The position numbers and the translations under genes were made by a program. The notes beneath the pieces were generated by a model. It saw nothing but the letters and a program-made list of their open reading frames with translations, did no database searches and had not been told where the DNA came from. A stretch of 64,000 bases of DNA from a bacterium (GTDB lineage Bacteria; Zhuqueibacterota; Zhuqueibacteria; Residuimicrobiales; Krinioviventaceae): positions 5,088,001 through 5,152,000 of the forward strand of contig OY843751.1 in the NCBI GenBank assembly GCA_963693055.1. Reading direction: 5' to 3'. Positions within the stretch are counted from its first letter, which is position 1, and each line of letters begins with the position of its first letter. Shown here in pieces: positions 23,701 through 62,190 of this stretch.

Positions 23701-24171
23701 TCAGGCAACTCTTTTCCCCGAATTATCACATCGCAGCAATTCTTTTAAAAATCCTTTAGGGTCCTGAAGAGTATCCATGCATTTCAAATAAACCGCACAC
23801 AGCCGGCAATCATCCAGAGTTTTAAAACTGCAATTGGCAGGAGTAAGCCAACATGGGGCAGAACTCTCGCTAAAAGCGGGACAGTTTTCACGTATATCTT
23901 CCGGGCATCCTACAAAGGTCCAGCAGGGAGTTAACGAACATAACATCTTTACAGCTTCAAGATTCAATTTTTTAACTCGAATCAAATCCATTATAACCTG
24001 TACGCGTCGAATATCATTTCGGGAATATACCCGCCTGCCGGTTTTGGTTCTATGAGGAATAATCAAACCTGCTTGCTCATACATACGCAGTGTAGGGACT
24101 GCTATACCAAGCTTGTCGGCTGCCAAACCGATGGTATAAACAGGTTCATTCATTAATTCTTGATCGTCCAT
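23701..24171 (-). CDS. MerR/HspR-like regulator with Cys-rich (two-CW) C-terminal domain
   Basis: YTIGLAADKLG...TLRMYE...GRRVYS, then CW-x4-C-x7-CPA-x7-CW-x5-C-x7-CxxC. Confidence 0.9.
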   Translation of the reverse strand: MDDQELMNEPVYTIGLAADKLGIAVPTLRMYEQAGLIIPHRTKTGRRVYSRNDIRRVQVIMDLIRVKKLNLEAVKMLCSLTPCWTFVGCPEDIRENCPAFSESSAPCWLTPANCSFKTLDDCRLCAVYLKCMDTLQDPKGFLKELLRCDNSGKRVA

Positions 24172-24373: not shown

Positions 24374-24484
24374 ATTTTGTTGTTTTTACAAAACAGAAAA
24401 AATTAGATGGCTACAGCAAGGATAAAGTATACAAAAATATACATTATCTATTCAACATATAAATCATTTACAGGAGGTAAACCC

Positions 24485-27103
24485 ATGAACAAATTGTACA
24501 TCGTTTTTCTATGCGTTCTACTTGCCTTTTCCGCAGCGATGTCACAAACTGTATCCATCATGCCGCATGGAATCTCACCTGCGCAGATGAAGGCGGATAC
24601 ATTGGGAGACGCGGATTATGTCGGTATATTTGATCGTACGTATTCTGGTATTCTCAATGTAGGTGTAGAAACACAAACATACCTGAAAGGTATGAGTGAT
24701 GTTCAACTTGTAGCACCCACATGGACGGTTGTTACAAAGCCAAACAATTCCAATGCTGACATTGCAAAAACTGCGGATGTTGACACATCAACCCAGTTTG
24801 CTGTTTTCACCCCCGATGTTGTCGGTACATATGTCATTGAATTTGCCGATGGCGGTGAACCCGCATCTGTAACCATCAATGCCGCCAAATATATTGGCTT
24901 TCAGGATGGTAACTGTTCACTCTGTCACAGTGGTATTGCTTCCGATTGGAGGGAAACCGGTCACGCTGACTTTTTTACCAGAGCTCTCGATGGTGAGGTA
25001 AGCAGCCACTATAGCGAAAGTTGTATTTCCTGTCACGTCGTAGGATACGACCTTGATGCCGACAATGACGGTTTTGACGATTTTGCATTTGAATTCCCCG
25101 CAACGTTAGAAGCAGGCACAGCCGATGCAATGGTCGCGCAATATCCCAATGCAATGAAACGCGCAAATATCCAGTGTGAGGCTTGTCACGGACCGGCCGG
25201 TTCACATTATGGAATTACAGAAGACAATAAAATGGTTGCTCCTCTGGCCTCTCAGGCTTGTAATGTATGTCATGATGATGATCATTATCATGTATATCCA
25301 TCACAATGGAAAACCGCAGGTCATGCAAACATTCCTTCATATCCCGGTGGCTCAAGAACCACTTGTCGAGGATGTCACAATGGTGCACAATTTGTTCAGT
25401 ACGTTGAAGGTGAAACAATTACCGTTCAAGACCACGTAGATATAACTTGTGCTGTATGTCACGATCCTCACTCTGCTGAAAATGAAAATCAATTGCGTAC
25501 ATTGGATGCAACCTTGTCGAATGACATGATGGTATCCGGTGTTGGTAAAGGCGCTCTCTGTATGAACTGTCACCAAAGTCGCCAGGAAGCCAACTCTTAT
25601 ACCGAACAACCCTCAGGACACTTTGGCCCACATTACGCACCTCAGGCTGATATGCTGTTGGGTGTTAATGTTGTTACATTTGGTAAAACCCTGCCCGTAT
25701 CTCCTCACCTTGAAGCTACAGGTGATGCATGCGTAACCTGTCATATGTATGAAGGTTCTAATGGCGGACATGATGCAGAAGGCAACCTGACCACAGCCGG
25801 TATGCACTCATTCAGTATGGTTAGTGCTGGTGGTGTAGACAATGTCGCTGCATGTTCAGATTGTCATGGAGATGTTGGTGAAACTTTTGCTGAAAAGAAA
25901 TATTTCCTGAATGGCATTGCCGATCATGATGGCGACGGCGTTGACGAAGGTCTGCAGGAAGAAGTTCATGGTTTAATGGATGTTCTTGCTGAAATGCTGC
26001 CGCACGCAGCAGATGTTGAAGCCTTTGATCCCCATGATGATCCGGATTCTACCTGGACAAAAACCGAATTAAAAGCTGCTTTTAACCACAAAATGGTTTA
26101 CTATGATCACAGTTATGGTATCCACAACCCGGCGTTTACCGTTTCTCTGCTAAAAGTTAGTATTCAAGCATTGATGAATAATGCAATTGACGGTGACATT
26201 GTTGCAATTGACGATGTTCCCAACGATCAGGGTAAACAGGTTCGTATCATATGGAGCAAGTTTGTAGATGACGGTACCGCAATTGATCCTGTTAATACGT
26301 ATATCGTAAAACGCTGGGATGTAGATAAAGAAGTTTGGGTAGGCGTTGGTGAACACACTGCCGATGGCAGCATGCGTTACGCAATGGTTGTTCCTACCGT
26401 TTACGATTCTACTGCAATGGGCGATGGAATGACCTCGTTCAAGGTAGTAGCCGTAACCCAGGGTAGCAATGTTCACGAATCTCTGCCGGCAGATGGTTAC
26501 TCTGTTGACAATCTTGTTCCTATGGCTCCAACAAATGTTATGGCCAATATTGTTAGCGGTCAGGTACAAATCACCTGGGATGAACCTGTAGATACTGATT
26601 TTAAATACTTTGCAGTATATCGCAGTGACGCATCCGGTTTTGAACCTACCGAATCAAACCTGGTTGGAACCATTACCGGTACCCAGTTTACTGATATGGA
26701 AATCAGTCAGAACGAGACCTATTACTATAAAGTCTCTGCAATCGATTTCTCAGGAAACGAATCAACACATTCAGAAGTTTCTATTCTGATTACTGCTATT
26801 GAAGGTGAAGGCGGCTCTGTGCCCACAACCTTCTCACTGGCTCAAAACTATCCGAACCCGTTCAACCCAACTACCATGATTGAGTTTGGTGTTCCCCGGG
26901 CGGAACAAGTTACCATCCGTATCTATGACATTCGCGGATCGCTGGTACGCACCCTTGCCGATGGCAAATTTGCAGCCGGTTTCCACAATGTTATTTGGGA
27001 TGGACGTAACGAATCAGGCTTGTTGGTAAGTGCGGGCACATATCTCTATCGCCTTGAATCTCCAACAACCAACTTTACCAAAAAGATGATATTCCTCAAA
27101 TAA
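24485..27103 (+). CDS. Nine-heme c-type cytochrome with FN3 and T9SS/FlgD-type C-terminal domain
   Basis: AGGAGG RBS, signal peptide, nine CXXCH motifs, FN3 (YYYKVSAID), YPNPFNPTT...KKMIFLK. Confidence 0.92.
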   Translation: MNKLYIVFLCVLLAFSAAMSQTVSIMPHGISPAQMKADTLGDADYVGIFDRTYSGILNVGVETQTYLKGMSDVQLVAPTWTVVTKPNNSNADIAKTADVDTSTQFAVFTPDVVGTYVIEFADGGEPASVTINAAKYIGFQDGNCSLCHSGIASDWRETGHADFFTRALDGEVSSHYSESCISCHVVGYDLDADNDGFDDFAFEFPATLEAGTADAMVAQYPNAMKRANIQCEACHGPAGSHYGITEDNKMVAPLASQACNVCHDDDHYHVYPSQWKTAGHANIPSYPGGSRTTCRGCHNGAQFVQYVEGETITVQDHVDITCAVCHDPHSAENENQLRTLDATLSNDMMVSGVGKGALCMNCHQSRQEANSYTEQPSGHFGPHYAPQADMLLGVNVVTFGKTLPVSPHLEATGDACVTCHMYEGSNGGHDAEGNLTTAGMHSFSMVSAGGVDNVAACSDCHGDVGETFAEKKYFLNGIADHDGDGVDEGLQEEVHGLMDVLAEMLPHAADVEAFDPHDDPDSTWTKTELKAAFNHKMVYYDHSYGIHNPAFTVSLLKVSIQALMNNAIDGDIVAIDDVPNDQGKQVRIIWSKFVDDGTAIDPVNTYIVKRWDVDKEVWVGVGEHTADGSMRYAMVVPTVYDSTAMGDGMTSFKVVAVTQGSNVHESLPADGYSVDNLVPMAPTNVMANIVSGQVQITWDEPVDTDFKYFAVYRSDASGFEPTESNLVGTITGTQFTDMEISQNETYYYKVSAIDFSGNESTHSEVSILITAIEGEGGSVPTTFSLAQNYPNPFNPTTMIEFGVPRAEQVTIRIYDIRGSLVRTLADGKFAAGFHNVIWDGRNESGLLVSAGTYLYRLESPTTNFTKKMIFLK

Positions 27104-27129
27104 TTGAGATAAAAAGGTCCCTATCGAAG

Positions 27130-27164
27130 AAAAGCCGGTCCTGATGTTTTGGGACCGGCTTTTT
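27130..27164 (+). terminator. Intrinsic terminator
   Basis: AAAAGCCGGTCC...GGACCGGCTTTTT. Confidence 0.8.
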
Positions 27165-27286
27165 CTTTTACGAATTATTACTTTGAATAGTGATTCCTGG
27201 AATAATTTTTTGACATTTACTTCCTGAGTTTAAATCCTCGTTACAATCAAAAAAAGGTCTTCCCTCAATTGTAATCCCCTGATTTT

Positions 27287-30218: not shown

Positions 30219-31621
30219 ATGCAAGATCAAAAGTCTAGTGAAAAAAGGCAGGACAAGGGTCTGTCACGCCGGGAATTTCTTGGCGGTACTGCTGTAGCAG
30301 CAGGAGCCGCGTTTACGATTGTTCCCAGTTCAGTACTGGCCGGTAACGGAAAAACCGCCCCCAGTGACAAGATCAATATCGCAGCAATTGGAGCCGGTGG
30401 TATGGGCGGTGGAAATCTGTCCCGATGTGAGACCGAAAATATAGTTGCCTTGTGTGACGTTGATGATGACCGTGCCGCAAAGAGCTATGAAAAATATCCC
30501 GATGCAGCTCGTTACGCAGATTATCGTATTATGCTTGACAAACAAAAAGACATTGACGCGGTGATTGTTGCAACTCCAGACCATACGCATGCACCTGCGG
30601 GTATTGCCTGCATGAATCACGGTAAACATGTATATGTACAAAAACCCATGGCGCATACGGTTTTTGAAGCCCGTAAAATGGCCGAGGTTGCCAGAGCCAA
30701 TAACGTTATGACCCAAATGGGTAACCAGGGACATTCCGGCGAAGGTGTGCGTTTAATGACAGAATGGATCCAGGATGGCGCCATTGGCGATGTTCGCAAA
30801 GTGGTTGCATGGACCAACAGACCCGTATGGCCGCAAGGCTTGTATCGCCCTTATGAAAAACCCCGTGTTCCCGACACCATGAACTGGGACTTGTGGCTGG
30901 GTTCTGCCCCGTTCGTCCGTATCACCCCGCATACGCTCCCTGGAGCTGGCGCGCATGGTGGGACTTTGGCTGCGGTGCTATTGGAGATATGGCTTGCCAT
31001 GTACTGGACCCCGTCTTTACCGTAATGGAACCGGGTTTCCCCTCTTCTGTTGAAGCCTGTACGCCACAAGTGTATGTTGAAGGCAGAATCCTTAAAAATT
31101 CAATTGAAGAGTGCGGACCCACATCATCCATCATTCACTATCGTTTCCCCAAACGCAAAAAAATGCCGGCGTTTGAACTGACCTGGTACGATGGCGGACT
31201 CATGCCGCCCCGTCCGGAAGAACTGGAACCCGGCCGCAGAATGGGTGGCGGTAACAGTGGTGTAATTTTTGAAGGTGACAAGGGCAAGATCATGTGCGGC
31301 GAATATGGCGACAACCCCCGCATCATTCCCGAAGCCAAAATGAAAGAATACAAACAACCCAAACAAACTATTGAACGTGTTCCCGGCGGCAGCGGCGGCC
31401 ATGAACAGGATTGGATCCGCGCCTGTAAAGACGGCAAACCCGCCTGCTCAAACTTTGATTACGCCGGCCCCATGACCGAAACCGTATTGCTGGGTAATGT
31501 GGCAATCCGTGCCGGTAACAACCTGCAACTGGATTGGGACGGCCAAAACATGAAAGTGCTCAACCATGACGAAGCCAATCAGTATGTAAACAAACAATAC
31601 AGAGAAGGTTTTGGCATTTAA
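30219..31621 (+). pseudogene. Tat-exported Gfo/Idh/MocA oxidoreductase split by a frameshift near 30911
   Basis: SRREFL, TPDHTH, VYVQKP in the first frame. WDLWLGSAP continues as VRPYHP...GDMACH in the other frame. Confidence 0.85.
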
Positions 31622-60408: not shown

Positions 60409-61104
60409 TCACTCGTTTTCAATTTTCGTAAAACAAATATCCTTAAACTCTAATTTTTCAACAATATTTTTAAAATTCTCTGTTACAATAATTGCAGTTG
60501 GCAATTCAACAATTCTAAAAACCTCTTCATCCAAAAGTTTTGGTGAAATACTAATTTTTATCTTATCCGGCATTGTGATAGGGATGCGTCCACATCTTTC
60601 ACACTTTTCAATAGGATAATCTAAAATTCTGGCTTTGGGGATTATCTGAAATTCATAATAATCAAAATCCCTTTTATCATTCATTACAATTTTCGTTTTA
60701 GCAACCTTAGGTAACTTTATATCCTCTTTTTTCAATAATTCATATGCATTATAACTTACCAGTAGCGTCCACGGATTAAGCCATGCAAAGTCATAGAACC
60801 TACCTTTTGCAATACCTTGTAAAGGACCAAATTTTGTTCCAGGCAAAACAAACATATCTTTAAATAAATTATCTGTAGTTGGTTTCATCTCATGATGTGT
60901 TTGCCATGGATAAGGCTTTCGAATTGAATAATACTCTTCATATTCAGCATATTCATTACTTAAAACAATATTTGGATATTGAATACCAGTAACGGCCCAT
61001 TTGCTTTTGCATATGTCACAAATCATACCGGGTATACTATATTTGTGAACAGCATCAATTAAATAACTTTTTGATTTGTCACATGAAATTTTATAAAAAC
61101 TCAT
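60409..61104 (-). CDS. Double-CXXCG-type (SitI6-like) immunity protein
   Basis: HKYSIPGMICDIC, QYP, PGTKFGPL, TLLV, CERCGR. Immediately downstream of the toxin. Confidence 0.75.
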   Translation of the reverse strand: MSFYKISCDKSKSYLIDAVHKYSIPGMICDICKSKWAVTGIQYPNIVLSNEYAEYEEYYSIRKPYPWQTHHEMKPTTDNLFKDMFVLPGTKFGPLQGIAKGRFYDFAWLNPWTLLVSYNAYELLKKEDIKLPKVAKTKIVMNDKRDFDYYEFQIIPKARILDYPIEKCERCGRIPITMPDKIKISISPKLLDEEVFRIVELPTAIIVTENFKNIVEKLEFKDICFTKIENE

Positions 61105-61113
61105 ATTAACCTT

Positions 61114-62190
61114 TCAATATAAAATTTTGATATTAATTTGAGCTTGATTTAAATCAAAATCATACAACATCTTACCCAATTGTTTATAAATATCCTTGTC
61201 ATTAGCCATTGGATTTAAATCAAAAAAATCTTGCCATGCTTTATTCCAGTTTCCTCCTCGAGCTCCTCCTCCATGTATACCTGTTGAACCAATATAAACT
61301 CTTCTTGGGAGTGGCATTATATAATCATGTATATCTATTCCTTGTTCTACAAACTTCTCAGCTAAATCTTGTCTTTGAGAGAAAATATGATGACCTTGAA
61401 TAGGCGTTGCTTCAATTGCTGTTGGATAATCATACGTAAATACACTAAAATCTTCATCAACTACATCATCTAAACCAAATCGTTGTGACCCTAACTCACG
61501 TCTTTGAAAAAAATCAGTGTTAGGTACCAAGTTTGACTGTAACATTTCCGGAGTATCAGCCAATCCACCAGTCCATGGATTATACCCCATATTTTTAGCA
61601 TACCTATAACCTCCAATACCACCAAAAAGGCCTCCACCGACTGCTCCCCCAATAAAACCTGCCCAAACATCCTGGCCGGAAAGCCCAGCTGTTAAGGCAC
61701 CAACCCCTCCACCAGTGGCTGCACCATATGCCAATCCTGGCAGGAACCCAGCGGGAGCGAATATTGAAGCAGCTGTACCTAAACCTCCACCTAAGGCCCC
61801 AATACCAACTGAAGAGAAAAAGCCCCCTACTCGAAATTATCAGAGTGGTTTATTGCATATGAAATGCCACCTGTTGCGCCACCAATTAGCGCACCTGCAA
61901 GAATTACTTGCCAAAACTCCCCATCCGGATCCACCATAATCAATGGATTATTGCCGCAATACACATACGGGCTGAATCCCTGTCCAGCGGGGTCAGGCAC
62001 AAACCAACGGCCAATCTCGGGATTATAGTATCTTGCTCCAAAGCCGCAGCGTAGCGGAGGTGCGCCTATGGAGTATAATAAAGTCCGATGTCTGAGTCAA
62101 GCTCTTTTTGTGAGAACTGGTAGCTGTTATCATCATTCCCCGAAGCGACCAGAGTTTCACCAAAGGGGGTGTAATCACGGGTCATATCTA
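61114..62190 (-). pseudogene. Orphan RHS core plus C-terminal toxin (DUF2380/SitA6-like), disrupted
   Basis: DYTPFG, KELD..GLYY/FGARYYNPEIGRW..PDP, PYVYCGNNP..VDPDG. 32-bp insertion, TAG at 61827-61829 and a frameshift. Tip HHIFSQ...GIDIH...IH.GG.WN.AW. Confidence 0.85.

What the first reader, a model, noticed from the sequence alone, without database searches (positions are those of the whole stretch)
24485..27103. Nine-heme cytochrome c carrying a T9SS-type secretion tail
Seen: signal peptide, nine CXXCH motifs (CSLCH, CISCH, CEACH, CNVCH, CRGCH, CAVCH, CMNCH, CVTCH, CSDCH), an FN3 domain and the same YPNPFN...K tail as four other secreted proteins in this window. It is a monocistronic gene with no adjacent porin partner. 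Established: such tails route folded periplasmic proteins through the type IX secretion system, whereas characterised extracellular electron transfer uses porin-cytochrome conduits, lipoproteins or cytochrome filaments. Inference: T9SS-delivered surface or extracellular cytochrome, a possibly distinct route for extracellular electron transfer.
Basis: partly seen in the sequence, partly recalled or inferred. Interest (0 to 1): 0.8.

Follow-up and report, generated by a model that had tools for sequence, protein, structure and literature searches.

The report
Nine-heme cytochrome with T9SS export tag
This bacterial gene encodes a cytochrome with nine heme-binding motifs, predicted to fold like a known cell-surface iron-reducing enzyme, and it ends in the export tag of the type IX secretion system, so the cell likely places it on its outer surface, where it would take electrons from a separately encoded porin-cytochrome wire.

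Summary
Observation confirmed. Window 24485-27103 encodes 872 aa: signal peptide, PKD-like domain, nine CXXCH, two FN3 domains and a type A T9SS tail that scores above the TIGR04183 and PF18962 cut-offs. The heme core is a relative of the surface reductases OcwA and OmhA (profile E 3e-23; model Z 14.7), with two likely open-coordination hemes. The genome (KSB1) has SprA, PorV, PorU, PorZ and Ccm genes, and a model docks the tail on its PorV (0.93, best control 0.00; like complexes are solved). No GldK/L/M/N energy chain was found. The tail is on 202 of 217 proteins examined. One correction: this complements porin conduits rather than replacing them. All 55 core-positive genomes of 145 carry one porin-like family (28 of the 90 others do), and it lies within 10 kb of the cytochrome gene in 24 of 54. 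Best reading: a T9SS-exported terminal reductase fed by a porin-cytochrome conduit (0.55). Export, anchoring and substrate are untested. I found no paper linking T9SS with multiheme cytochromes. Earlier notes of this scan report this family in two other genomes.

The parts
24473..24477 (+). Ribosome-binding site GGAGG, 7 nt before the ATG
   Evidence: sequence
24485..27103 (+). Whole gene, 872 aa (P0001)
   Evidence: 95% aa identity to the same-genus copy
24485..24544 (+). Sec signal peptide, residues 1-20, likely cut before Gln21; no lipobox at the cut site
   Evidence: inspection; helix 2-18; Q21 at least 90% conserved
24545..24886 (+). N-terminal all-beta domain, residues 21-134, likely PKD-like
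   Evidence: all-strand in the model; PF22352/PKD hits on the same region of homologs P0127, P0131, P0139, P0085, none on P0001 itself
24887..26179 (+). Nonaheme core, residues 135-565, OcwA/OmhA-like (c554-like plus NrfA-like modules)
   Evidence: profile vs PDB: OcwA 6I5B E 2.9e-23, OmhA 6QVM 5.8e-14; Z 14.7, rmsd 3.5, 333 aligned
24914..25867 (+). Span of the nine CXXCH motifs (first 24914-24928, last 25853-25867)
   Evidence: motif Cys and His invariant in 102 aligned sequences
25286..25291 (+). Tyr268-His269, aligned to the first OcwA His-His pair (the one at five-coordinate heme 2)
   Evidence: H269 in 102/102; position 268 His 51, Tyr 49, Arg 2; alignment; heme assignment inferred
25580..25645 (+). 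Arg366 ... His383-Tyr384 ... Gln387, likely the pocket over heme 5
   Evidence: R366 102/102, H383 102/102, Q387 100/102, position 384 Tyr 71, His 30; OmhA alignment; spatial role inferred
25952..26179 (+). C-terminal three-helix bundle, residues 490-565, with the GIHN motif (His547)
   Evidence: helices 490-504, 526-541, 549-565; aligned to OcwA, OmhA, NrfA
26192..26797 (+). Two FN3-like domains (about 570-672 and 677-771), likely a stalk
   Evidence: FN3 hits Z 12-13; absent from the 650-690 aa homologs
26816..27103 (+). Type A T9SS sorting domain (CTD), residues about 778-872, YPNPFN motif and Lys867
   Evidence: TIGR04183 and PF18962 over cut-off; K867 invariant; PorV model 0.93 vs 0.00
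27126..27168 (+). Intrinsic-terminator-like hairpin with U-run
   Evidence: -26.8 kcal/mol, z -5.9, 0 of 200 shuffles as stable
23701..24171 (-). Divergent MerR-family regulator with a Cys-rich C-terminal half; candidate regulator of the gene
   Evidence: MerR_1 59 bits; an ortholog lies next to the cytochrome gene in 3 of 20 relatives, all same family

Best explanation
The gene encodes an OcwA-like nine-heme cytochrome that is likely exported across the outer membrane by a T9SS-type translocon and likely acts there as a terminal reductase fed by a porin-cytochrome conduit. Steps: (1) Sec export and heme attachment by Ccm in the periplasm: genes shown, activity inferred. (2) The folded holo-protein is recognised by its tail on PorV/SprA: tail and genes shown, binding predicted by a model. 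(3) PorU cuts the tail and either links the protein to a surface lipid or releases it: inferred from Bacteroidota. (4) Electrons come from the quinol pool through NapC/NirT-like and cytochrome-b multiheme proteins, a 12-heme cytochrome in a porin-like barrel and a multiheme lipoprotein: genes shown elsewhere in this genome and linked in relatives, wiring inferred. [quoted passage not shown]
For: Tail over two curated cut-offs; it ranks 77 of 242 on a profile of this genome's own tails, and 186 of 217 tailed ORFs share its Lys at position -6. SprA 662 bits, PorU 883 and 876 bits, PorZ 277 bits, PorV family 311 bits, all over cut-off. SprA in 143 of 145 and the PorV ortholog in 61 of 61 phylum genomes. 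Tail-PorV model: 0.93 vs best of 3 controls 0.00, runs agree in at least 96% of contacts, partner pLDDT 90; the mark was reached by 116 of 157 solved and 2 of 215 mismatched pairs; like complexes are solved, so the pass may be from memory. Tail motif on 202 of 217 proteins, query included, and on 28 of 30 phylum loci, the other two running off their contigs. Four homologs, one named Limisphaera, form their own clade and carry a different C-terminus, as a swappable tag would. Best solved relatives are two cell-surface reductases. Barrel family in 55 of 55 core-positive genomes vs 28 of 90 others, and within 10 kb in 24 of 54, six families; 16 of 46 without the 8 genomes used to build the profile.
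Against: No GldM, GldL or GldN match and only sub-cut-off GldK matches; GldM_1st over cut-off in 0 of 145 phylum genomes, while GldM was found in 10 of 41 genomes of another phylum. In Flavobacterium the motor is needed to release cargo (PMC10994853). The PorV ortholog is just under the equivalog cut-off (242.6 vs 250). In this genome and its same-genus relative the barrel gene is megabases away. Co-occurrence counts rest on related genomes, and lineages without cytochrome-rich respiration lack both genes. The barrel fold was not confirmed by a model. The OcwA His-His pairs and His/Met ligand are not strictly kept, and an invariant Arg366 points to a specific small-anion site. A shared fold shows no function; OcwA itself also reduces nitrite and hydroxylamine (PMC6703420).
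Confidence: 0.55

Rival explanations
1. The protein is exported by the same route but is a dedicated enzyme for a small soluble substrate (nitrite, NO, hydroxylamine, a sulfur or metalloid oxyanion) that it reduces or detoxifies at the cell surface.
For: NrfA and ONR are the next structural hits (Z 12.9, 12.4, 12.0). Two spare invariant His plus invariant Arg366 and near-invariant Gln387 look like a conserved pocket. OcwA reduces nitrite and hydroxylamine in vitro (PMC6703420, Discussion). NCBI names one homolog a nitrite reductase c552 (P0161).
Against: No CXXCK and no CX15CH. Small anions reach the periplasm through porins, so export brings little (general knowledge). Recurrent neighbours in 20 relatives are porin-cytochrome and quinol-oxidising genes.
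Confidence: 0.2
2. The protein is exported and wired to the conduit but works in the other direction or between cells: electron uptake from reduced minerals or partners, or a released, diffusible shuttle or matrix electron store.
For: Sequence does not give the direction of a conduit. Cargo can be released rather than anchored (PMC5445135, PMC10994853). OmhA was proposed to act partly as a loosely bound shuttle (PMC7829351). The genome has alternative complex III and oxidase-like genes (by inspection).
Against: Both solved relatives are described as reductases or as induced on ferrihydrite (PMC6703420, PMC7829351). PorU and PorZ, the anchoring components, are present.
Confidence: 0.13
3. The tail is an FlgD-like Ig domain that does not cause export in this lineage, and the cytochrome stays in the periplasm as a soluble reductase or relay.
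For: FlgD_ig scores higher than PF18962 on the tail (45.6 vs 27.4 bits). The known energy chain was not found. No secretion by this machine has been shown in this phylum in the papers I searched.
Against: SprA and PorV are near-universal in the phylum. Over 200 proteins of this genome carry the tail; the four others in the window are an esterase, an FG-GAP protein, an M43 peptidase with PKD repeats and an unassigned protein. The tail docks on PorV in a model. FN3 and PKD domains are typical of outside proteins (general knowledge).
Confidence: 0.1

Closest known systems
OcwA of Thermincola potens (PDB 6I5B; PMC6703420)
   Same: Nine CXXCH hemes, c554-like plus NrfA-like modules, C-terminal three-helix bundle; His at six of seven likely distal-ligand positions and His at both pocket motifs; 26% identity over 333 aligned residues, Z 14.7, rmsd 3.5.
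   Different: Diderm host. Adds a PKD-like domain, two FN3 domains and a T9SS tail. His408 where OcwA has the heme-9 Met. Tyr-His and His-Tyr instead of His-His pairs. Invariant Arg366, where OcwA and OmhA show Glu.
OmhA of Carboxydothermus ferrireducens (PDB 6QVM; PMC7829351, PMC9250108)
   Same: Same core, Z 14.6, rmsd 4.1, 335 aligned, 27% identity; GVHHPQ matches GPH[HY]xPQ.
   Different: OmhA has 11 hemes and sits in an S-layer of a monoderm; no T9SS tail.
Type A cargo of the Bacteroidota T9SS (gingipains, RemZ; PMC5445135, PMC10994853)
   Same: Signal peptide plus C-terminal domain with near-terminal Lys; SprA, PorV, PorU, PorZ in the genome.
   Different: Cargo is a covalent-heme redox protein; the tail has an FlgD-like insertion; the host has no recognisable GldK/L/M/N.
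MtrC/OmcA and Geobacter outer-surface cytochromes of porin-cytochrome conduits (recalled; Ignavibacteria conduits noted in PMC7399161)
   Same: Likely the same role: the outermost multiheme partner of a porin-cytochrome wire.
   Different: Those are lipoproteins, moved out by type II secretion in Shewanella (recalled). This protein has no lipobox, carries a T9SS tail, and matches the OcwA fold.
NrfA, ONR and MccA
   Same: Same superfamily (Z 12-13 for NrfA and ONR).
   Different: No CXXCK, no CX15CH; those enzymes are periplasmic.

Membership tests
T9SS type A cargo | N-terminal Sec signal peptide | tested here: met
   By inspection and conservation only; no predictor available
T9SS type A cargo | C-terminal domain matching type A CTD profiles | tested here: met
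   TIGR04183 34 > 23; PF18962 27.4 > 27
T9SS type A cargo | Near-invariant Lys close to the C-terminus (PMC10994853) | tested here: met
   K867 invariant in alignment A1 of 102; Lys at -6 in 186 of 217 genome tails
T9SS type A cargo | Tail binds the PorV carrier | tested here: met
   In a model only: 0.93 vs best control 0.00; may be recalled from solved complexes
T9SS type A cargo | Tail cleaved by PorU; protein anchored or released outside | not testable with these tools
   Two PorU over cut-off with GHG and ATC motifs (dyad motifs recalled)
Canonical T9SS (host machine) | SprA translocon, PorV, PorU, PorZ | tested here: met
   PorV equivalog score 242.6 vs cut-off 250
Canonical T9SS (host machine) | GldM/PorM motor arm | tested here: not met
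   No match in G000; PF12081 over cut-off in 0 of 145; positive control 10 of 41. A very remote homolog is not excluded
Canonical T9SS (host machine) | GldK, GldL, GldN | tested here: inconclusive
   GldL and GldN no match but no positive control; GldK best 104 bits vs cut-off 350
OcwA/OmhA surface cytochromes | Nine-heme core of c554 and NrfA modules with three-helix bundle | tested here: met
OcwA/OmhA surface cytochromes | Two five-coordinate hemes with a non-bonding distal His | tested here: inconclusive
OcwA/OmhA surface cytochromes | His-His pair at heme 5 (H380/H381 kept in all OcwA and OmhA, PMC9250108) | tested here: not met
   His383-Tyr384 here; His-His in 30 of 102 of A1 and 16 of 28 of A2
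OcwA (strict) | His/Met ligation of heme 9 | tested here: not met
   His408 invariant where OcwA shows Met nearby; ligand mapping inferred
OcwA/OmhA surface cytochromes | Surface location and electron transfer to minerals, shuttles or electrodes | not testable with these tools
   needs bench work
NrfA/ONR | CXXCK catalytic heme motif | tested here: not met
   all nine motifs are CXXCH
MccA | Eight hemes, last one CX15CH | tested here: not met
   nine CXXCH, no spare Cys in the mature protein
MtrC/OmcA | Lipoprotein signal with Cys at the cut site | tested here: not met
   Only non-motif Cys is Cys9; mature start is Gln
MtrC/OmcA | MtrC fold | tested here: inconclusive
   PF22113 hits over cut-off on CXXCH stretches; top fold rows are OcwA and OmhA

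The most novel reading that the evidence does not exclude
KSB1, Calditrichota, Fidelibacterota, Ignavibacteria and kin use a T9SS that lacks the known GldKLMN motor to push fully matured multiheme cytochromes through SprA and anchor them on the surface as the terminal reductases of porin-cytochrome conduits. That would be a further way to build an extracellular electron transfer chain, with a family of over a thousand OcwA-like proteins behind it, and a type IX system powered in an unknown way.
Probability: 0.45. Interest if true: 0.85.

Novelty: new variant of a known kind. Interest (0 to 1): 0.68.

Why it matters
Both parts are known, but their joining is not in the papers I could search. 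OcwA and OmhA were represented by two and four close sequences, each from one monoderm genus (PMC9250108). Here at least 1,266 related clusters appear, most of those examined with a T9SS tail, in sediment and subsurface phyla. If export is real, T9SS cargo includes covalent-heme redox enzymes, and a sequence marker exists for extracellular respiration in lineages whose iron reduction has no identified terminal enzyme. The claim is directly testable, because the tail can be tried on a reporter and the core can be expressed and assayed. The missing motor raises a second testable question, how this T9SS is powered.

Tried and rejected
Foldseek on the whole model returned only FN3 proteins; VIA-align found OcwA and OmhA. 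MccA, HAO, c554 and MtrC were not among the 50 rows shown in either list, which excludes nothing. The scan of genome contigs was swamped by the tail pattern and gave one full-length relative among 77 loci. A single-sequence fold of the barrel failed (pLDDT 32); its porin label rests on the ESM Atlas (0.99 to a 'porin family' cluster) and on a C-terminal aromatic pattern; Pfam, NCBIfam and PDB sequence searches gave nothing. The Atlas gave no useful hit for the N-terminal domain (0.76). No RNA holder listed. The search of 50%-identity representatives never ran, so distant tail-less relatives are under-sampled. The tree is a quick one, midpoint-rooted, on 61 chosen rows: no donor or order of events is claimed. 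An ExbB/ExbD pair near sprA as substitute motor was seen in only 5 of 21 loci: not supported. SprA co-occurrence is uninformative inside the phylum (143 of 145). The UshA-like hit (NF041198, 65 bits vs cut-off 275) is a shared c554-like stretch. Whether Limisphaera lacks SprA was not tested (recalled). CcmE was not searched. The Lauber 2018 SprA paper was not held, so pore size against cargo size was not checked.
Full report
Observation. The ORF at 24485-27103 gives 872 residues. The nine CXXCH motifs are as reported; they hold 18 of the 19 Cys, and none of 20,000 shuffles gave more than two motifs. The tail passes TIGR04183 (34 bits, cut-off 23) and PF18962 (27.4, cut-off 27); four other window proteins pass PF18962 too. 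The gene stands alone: a divergent MerR-family gene upstream, a convergent TPR gene downstream, a GGAGG before the start and a strong hairpin after the stop.

Anatomy. A model from 102 aligned sequences (mean pLDDT 90.5, pTM 0.69) shows a signal helix, a beta domain (21-134), a heme core ending in three helices (135-565), two FN3 domains and the tail. A profile of the core finds OcwA (6I5B, E 2.9e-23), OmhA (6QVM, 5.8e-14), then NrfA and c554 among solved chains (one search agrees). Against 48,161 representative chains OcwA and OmhA rank first (Z 14.7, rmsd 3.5, 333 aligned; Z 14.6, rmsd 4.1, 335 aligned), ahead of NrfA (12.9) and ONR (12.0). OcwA has six bis-His hemes, one His/Met heme and two five-coordinate hemes under His-His motifs (PMC6703420, structure section and Discussion read). 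Outside the motifs, nine His are invariant in 102 of 102 sequences. Seven (160, 241, 280, 329, 408, 441, 547) would serve seven six-coordinate hemes; six align with OcwA His and 408 lies beside an OcwA Met. The other two (269, 383) align with the OcwA His-His motifs. I infer seven bis-His hemes and two open sites. The pockets differ from OcwA: Tyr268-His269, His383-Tyr384 and an invariant Arg366, three residues after the heme-7 His, where NrfA has its catalytic Tyr (position recalled). So it works like OcwA by fold but fails two strict OcwA features, and it is not NrfA, ONR or MccA. The mature part is acidic (107 Asp+Glu, 35 Lys+Arg).

Host and export machine. The genome is one contig, 100% complete. 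A same-class genome encodes P0002, which NCBI labels candidate division KSB1, so the phylum is KSB1. It has SprA (662 bits, one 2,104-aa ORF), two PorU (883, 876 bits), PorZ (277, cut-off 260) and 22 PorV-family matches over cut-off, one of which is the ortholog (242.6 vs 250 on the equivalog). CcmC and CcmF match PF01578 over cut-off, with CcmA- and CcmB-like ORFs beside them by inspection. A motif search finds 217 tailed ORFs over 200 aa, 186 with Lys at -6; a profile of them finds 242, the query ranking 77th. SprA is in 143 of 145 phylum genomes and the PorV ortholog in 61 of 61. A model of the tail with this PorV scored 0.93 against a best control of 0.00 (three controls; runs agree in at least 96% of contacts; partner pLDDT 90; mark reached by 116 of 157 solved and 2 of 215 mismatched pairs). 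The interface includes 786-794 and 865-872. PorV-tail complexes are solved (PMC10994853, substrate-binding section and passages read), so this shows likeness, not binding. Against: GldM, GldL and GldN gave no match and GldK only sub-cut-off matches. GldM_1st passed its cut-off in 0 of 145 phylum genomes. The GldM model rang in 0 of 5 mixed genomes and in 10 of 41 genomes of another phylum, so it works. In Flavobacterium the motor is needed to pull cargo off the translocon, so this machine is either powered differently or by very remote homologs.

Family. The N-terminal 550 residues find 1,266 clusters and the core profile 1,406; only the best 120 of each were listed. Names span KSB1, Calditrichota, Fidelibacterota/Marinimicrobia, Ignavibacteria, Latescibacterota and Rhodothermales. 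Of the 217 proteins listed, query included, 202 carry the tail motif. Of the 15 without, three are marked partial, six stop at or soon after the core, two are 17-18-heme forms with another C-terminus, and four, one named Limisphaera (Verrucomicrobiota), share a different C-terminal domain and form one clade (SH-aLRT 99, quick tree). The core was found in 55 of 145 phylum genomes, one of them a weak match.

Neighbours. I fetched about 19 kb around the gene in 20 relatives chosen for long contigs. Recurrent neighbours: a porin-like protein with a 12-14-heme cytochrome in 8, a multiheme protein with a lipoprotein-like N-terminus in 9, a multiheme/cytochrome-b family in 6, a NapC/NirT-like hexaheme in 5, a second tailed 7-8-heme cytochrome in 5, and a Rieske protein in 3. 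G000 has homologs of the first four elsewhere (C1:1145547-1147643, 2681458, 5906965, 5911185). A profile of nine barrels found the family in 83 of 145 genomes: all 55 core-positive ones and 28 of the 90 others. It lies within 10 kb of the cytochrome gene in 24 of 54 genomes with a strong core match, in six families; leaving out the eight that built the profile, 16 of 46. Fragmented assemblies make these lower bounds; kinship makes them non-independent. In G000 and its same-genus relative the two are megabases apart. The barrel label rests on the Atlas, not on a fold.

Mechanism. The evidence fits a division of labour. A porin-cytochrome conduit would carry electrons across the outer membrane, and the T9SS-type machine would deliver the terminal enzyme to meet it, PorU anchoring or releasing it (mechanism as in PMC5445135, passages read). 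Export is likely (about 0.85). That the job is reduction of extracellular acceptors is less sure (0.55 overall). Rivals are an exported small-anion reductase (0.2), uptake or shuttle roles (0.13) and periplasmic retention (0.1).

Literature. Nine searches ran. 'multiheme' + 'type IX secretion' + 'cytochrome' gave 0 papers; 'T9SS' + 'c-type cytochrome' gave 8, none on this by listing; none of the 30 rows listed held 'T9SS'. Passages read by term search: PMC5317091, PMC7829351, PMC5492636, PMC9012183, PMC13608581, PMC7399161 (porin-cytochrome clusters in Ignavibacteria; no sorting-domain mention), PMC5596340 (Por tails in Marinimicrobia, not on cytochromes), PMC10732223 and 10.1101/2025.05.29.656830. 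Term searches in PMC11475568 and 10.64898/2026.05.27.727921 returned no hits. PMC9250108: Results and Discussion read. PMC7829351 notes that OcwA groups with nonahemes of Gram-negative bacteria, so some relatives may appear unremarked in its tree. No supplements were read, and most subscription journals are not searched, including the species descriptions of iron-reducing Ignavibacteria. NCBI already labels members 'T9SS type A sorting domain-containing protein', so the domain call is public; the inference is what I did not find.

Verdict. A real, conserved fusion of an OcwA-like nonaheme core to a T9SS tail, in a genome with translocon, carrier, sortase and heme maturation genes and a separately encoded porin-cytochrome cassette. 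New variant of a known kind; interest 0.68. Earlier notes of this scan reached a similar reading in other genomes; they are not independent support.

Noticed in passing
G000:C1:5668021-5674335 (L026/L027) and L173-L192: SprA, PorV, PorU and PorZ are present without recognisable GldK/L/M/N. sprA lies head-to-head with a two-gene pair that looks like lptF/lptG (by appearance, not scanned) in 19 of 21 loci; ExbB/ExbD-like genes are in the fetched stretch in 5 of 21, and another ExbB/ExbD/TonB-like set lies about 10 kb from porV in G000.
   Followed up: partly
G000, 32 places: 22 PorV-family matches over cut-off in one genome, several directly beside tailed genes; a possible set of cargo-specific carriers.
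   Followed up: no
window 23701-24171 (-): MerR-family regulator whose C-terminal half has about nine Cys (CW...C...C...CW...C...C..C); a possible metal or Fe-S redox sensor, adjacent to the cytochrome gene in 3 of 20 relatives.
   Followed up: partly
G000:C1:4628345-4630282 (L029) and C1:1644302-1647052: Two more tailed heme proteins in this genome: a five-CXXCH protein (TIGR04183 33 bits) and a 916-aa protein with two CXXCH.
   Followed up: partly
L160, L161, L163, L166, L167: A second tailed 7-8-heme cytochrome lies next to the gene in 5 of 20 relatives; two of three scanned also carry an ethylbenzene-dehydrogenase-type (PF09459) domain.
   Followed up: partly
G000:C1:2004136-2009383 and C1:3832967-3841422: Further conduit-like loci: a 49-CXXCH protein with a downstream barrel-like gene, and 20-, 28- and 10-CXXCH genes with a related barrel-like gene.
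   Followed up: no
P0020, P0074, P0090, P0103, P0111; P0085, P0088: Homologs with the nonaheme core doubled (17-18 hemes), five with the T9SS tail and two with another C-terminus.
   Followed up: no
P0208, P0153, P0179, P0195: Homologs (one named Limisphaera) that end in TSP3-like repeats and a shared, unassigned C-terminal domain ending in F/Y-Y-R-V; possibly a sorting tag of another export system.
   Followed up: partly
window 30219-31621 (+): An oxidoreductase gene appears as two overlapping ORFs (268 and 242 aa); the same-genus genome has one 467-aa ORF, so a frameshift or an assembly error is likely.
   Followed up: no
window 60409-61734 (-): Adjacent Gmx_para_CXXCG and DUF2380 genes, families I recall from myxobacteria.
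   Followed up: no
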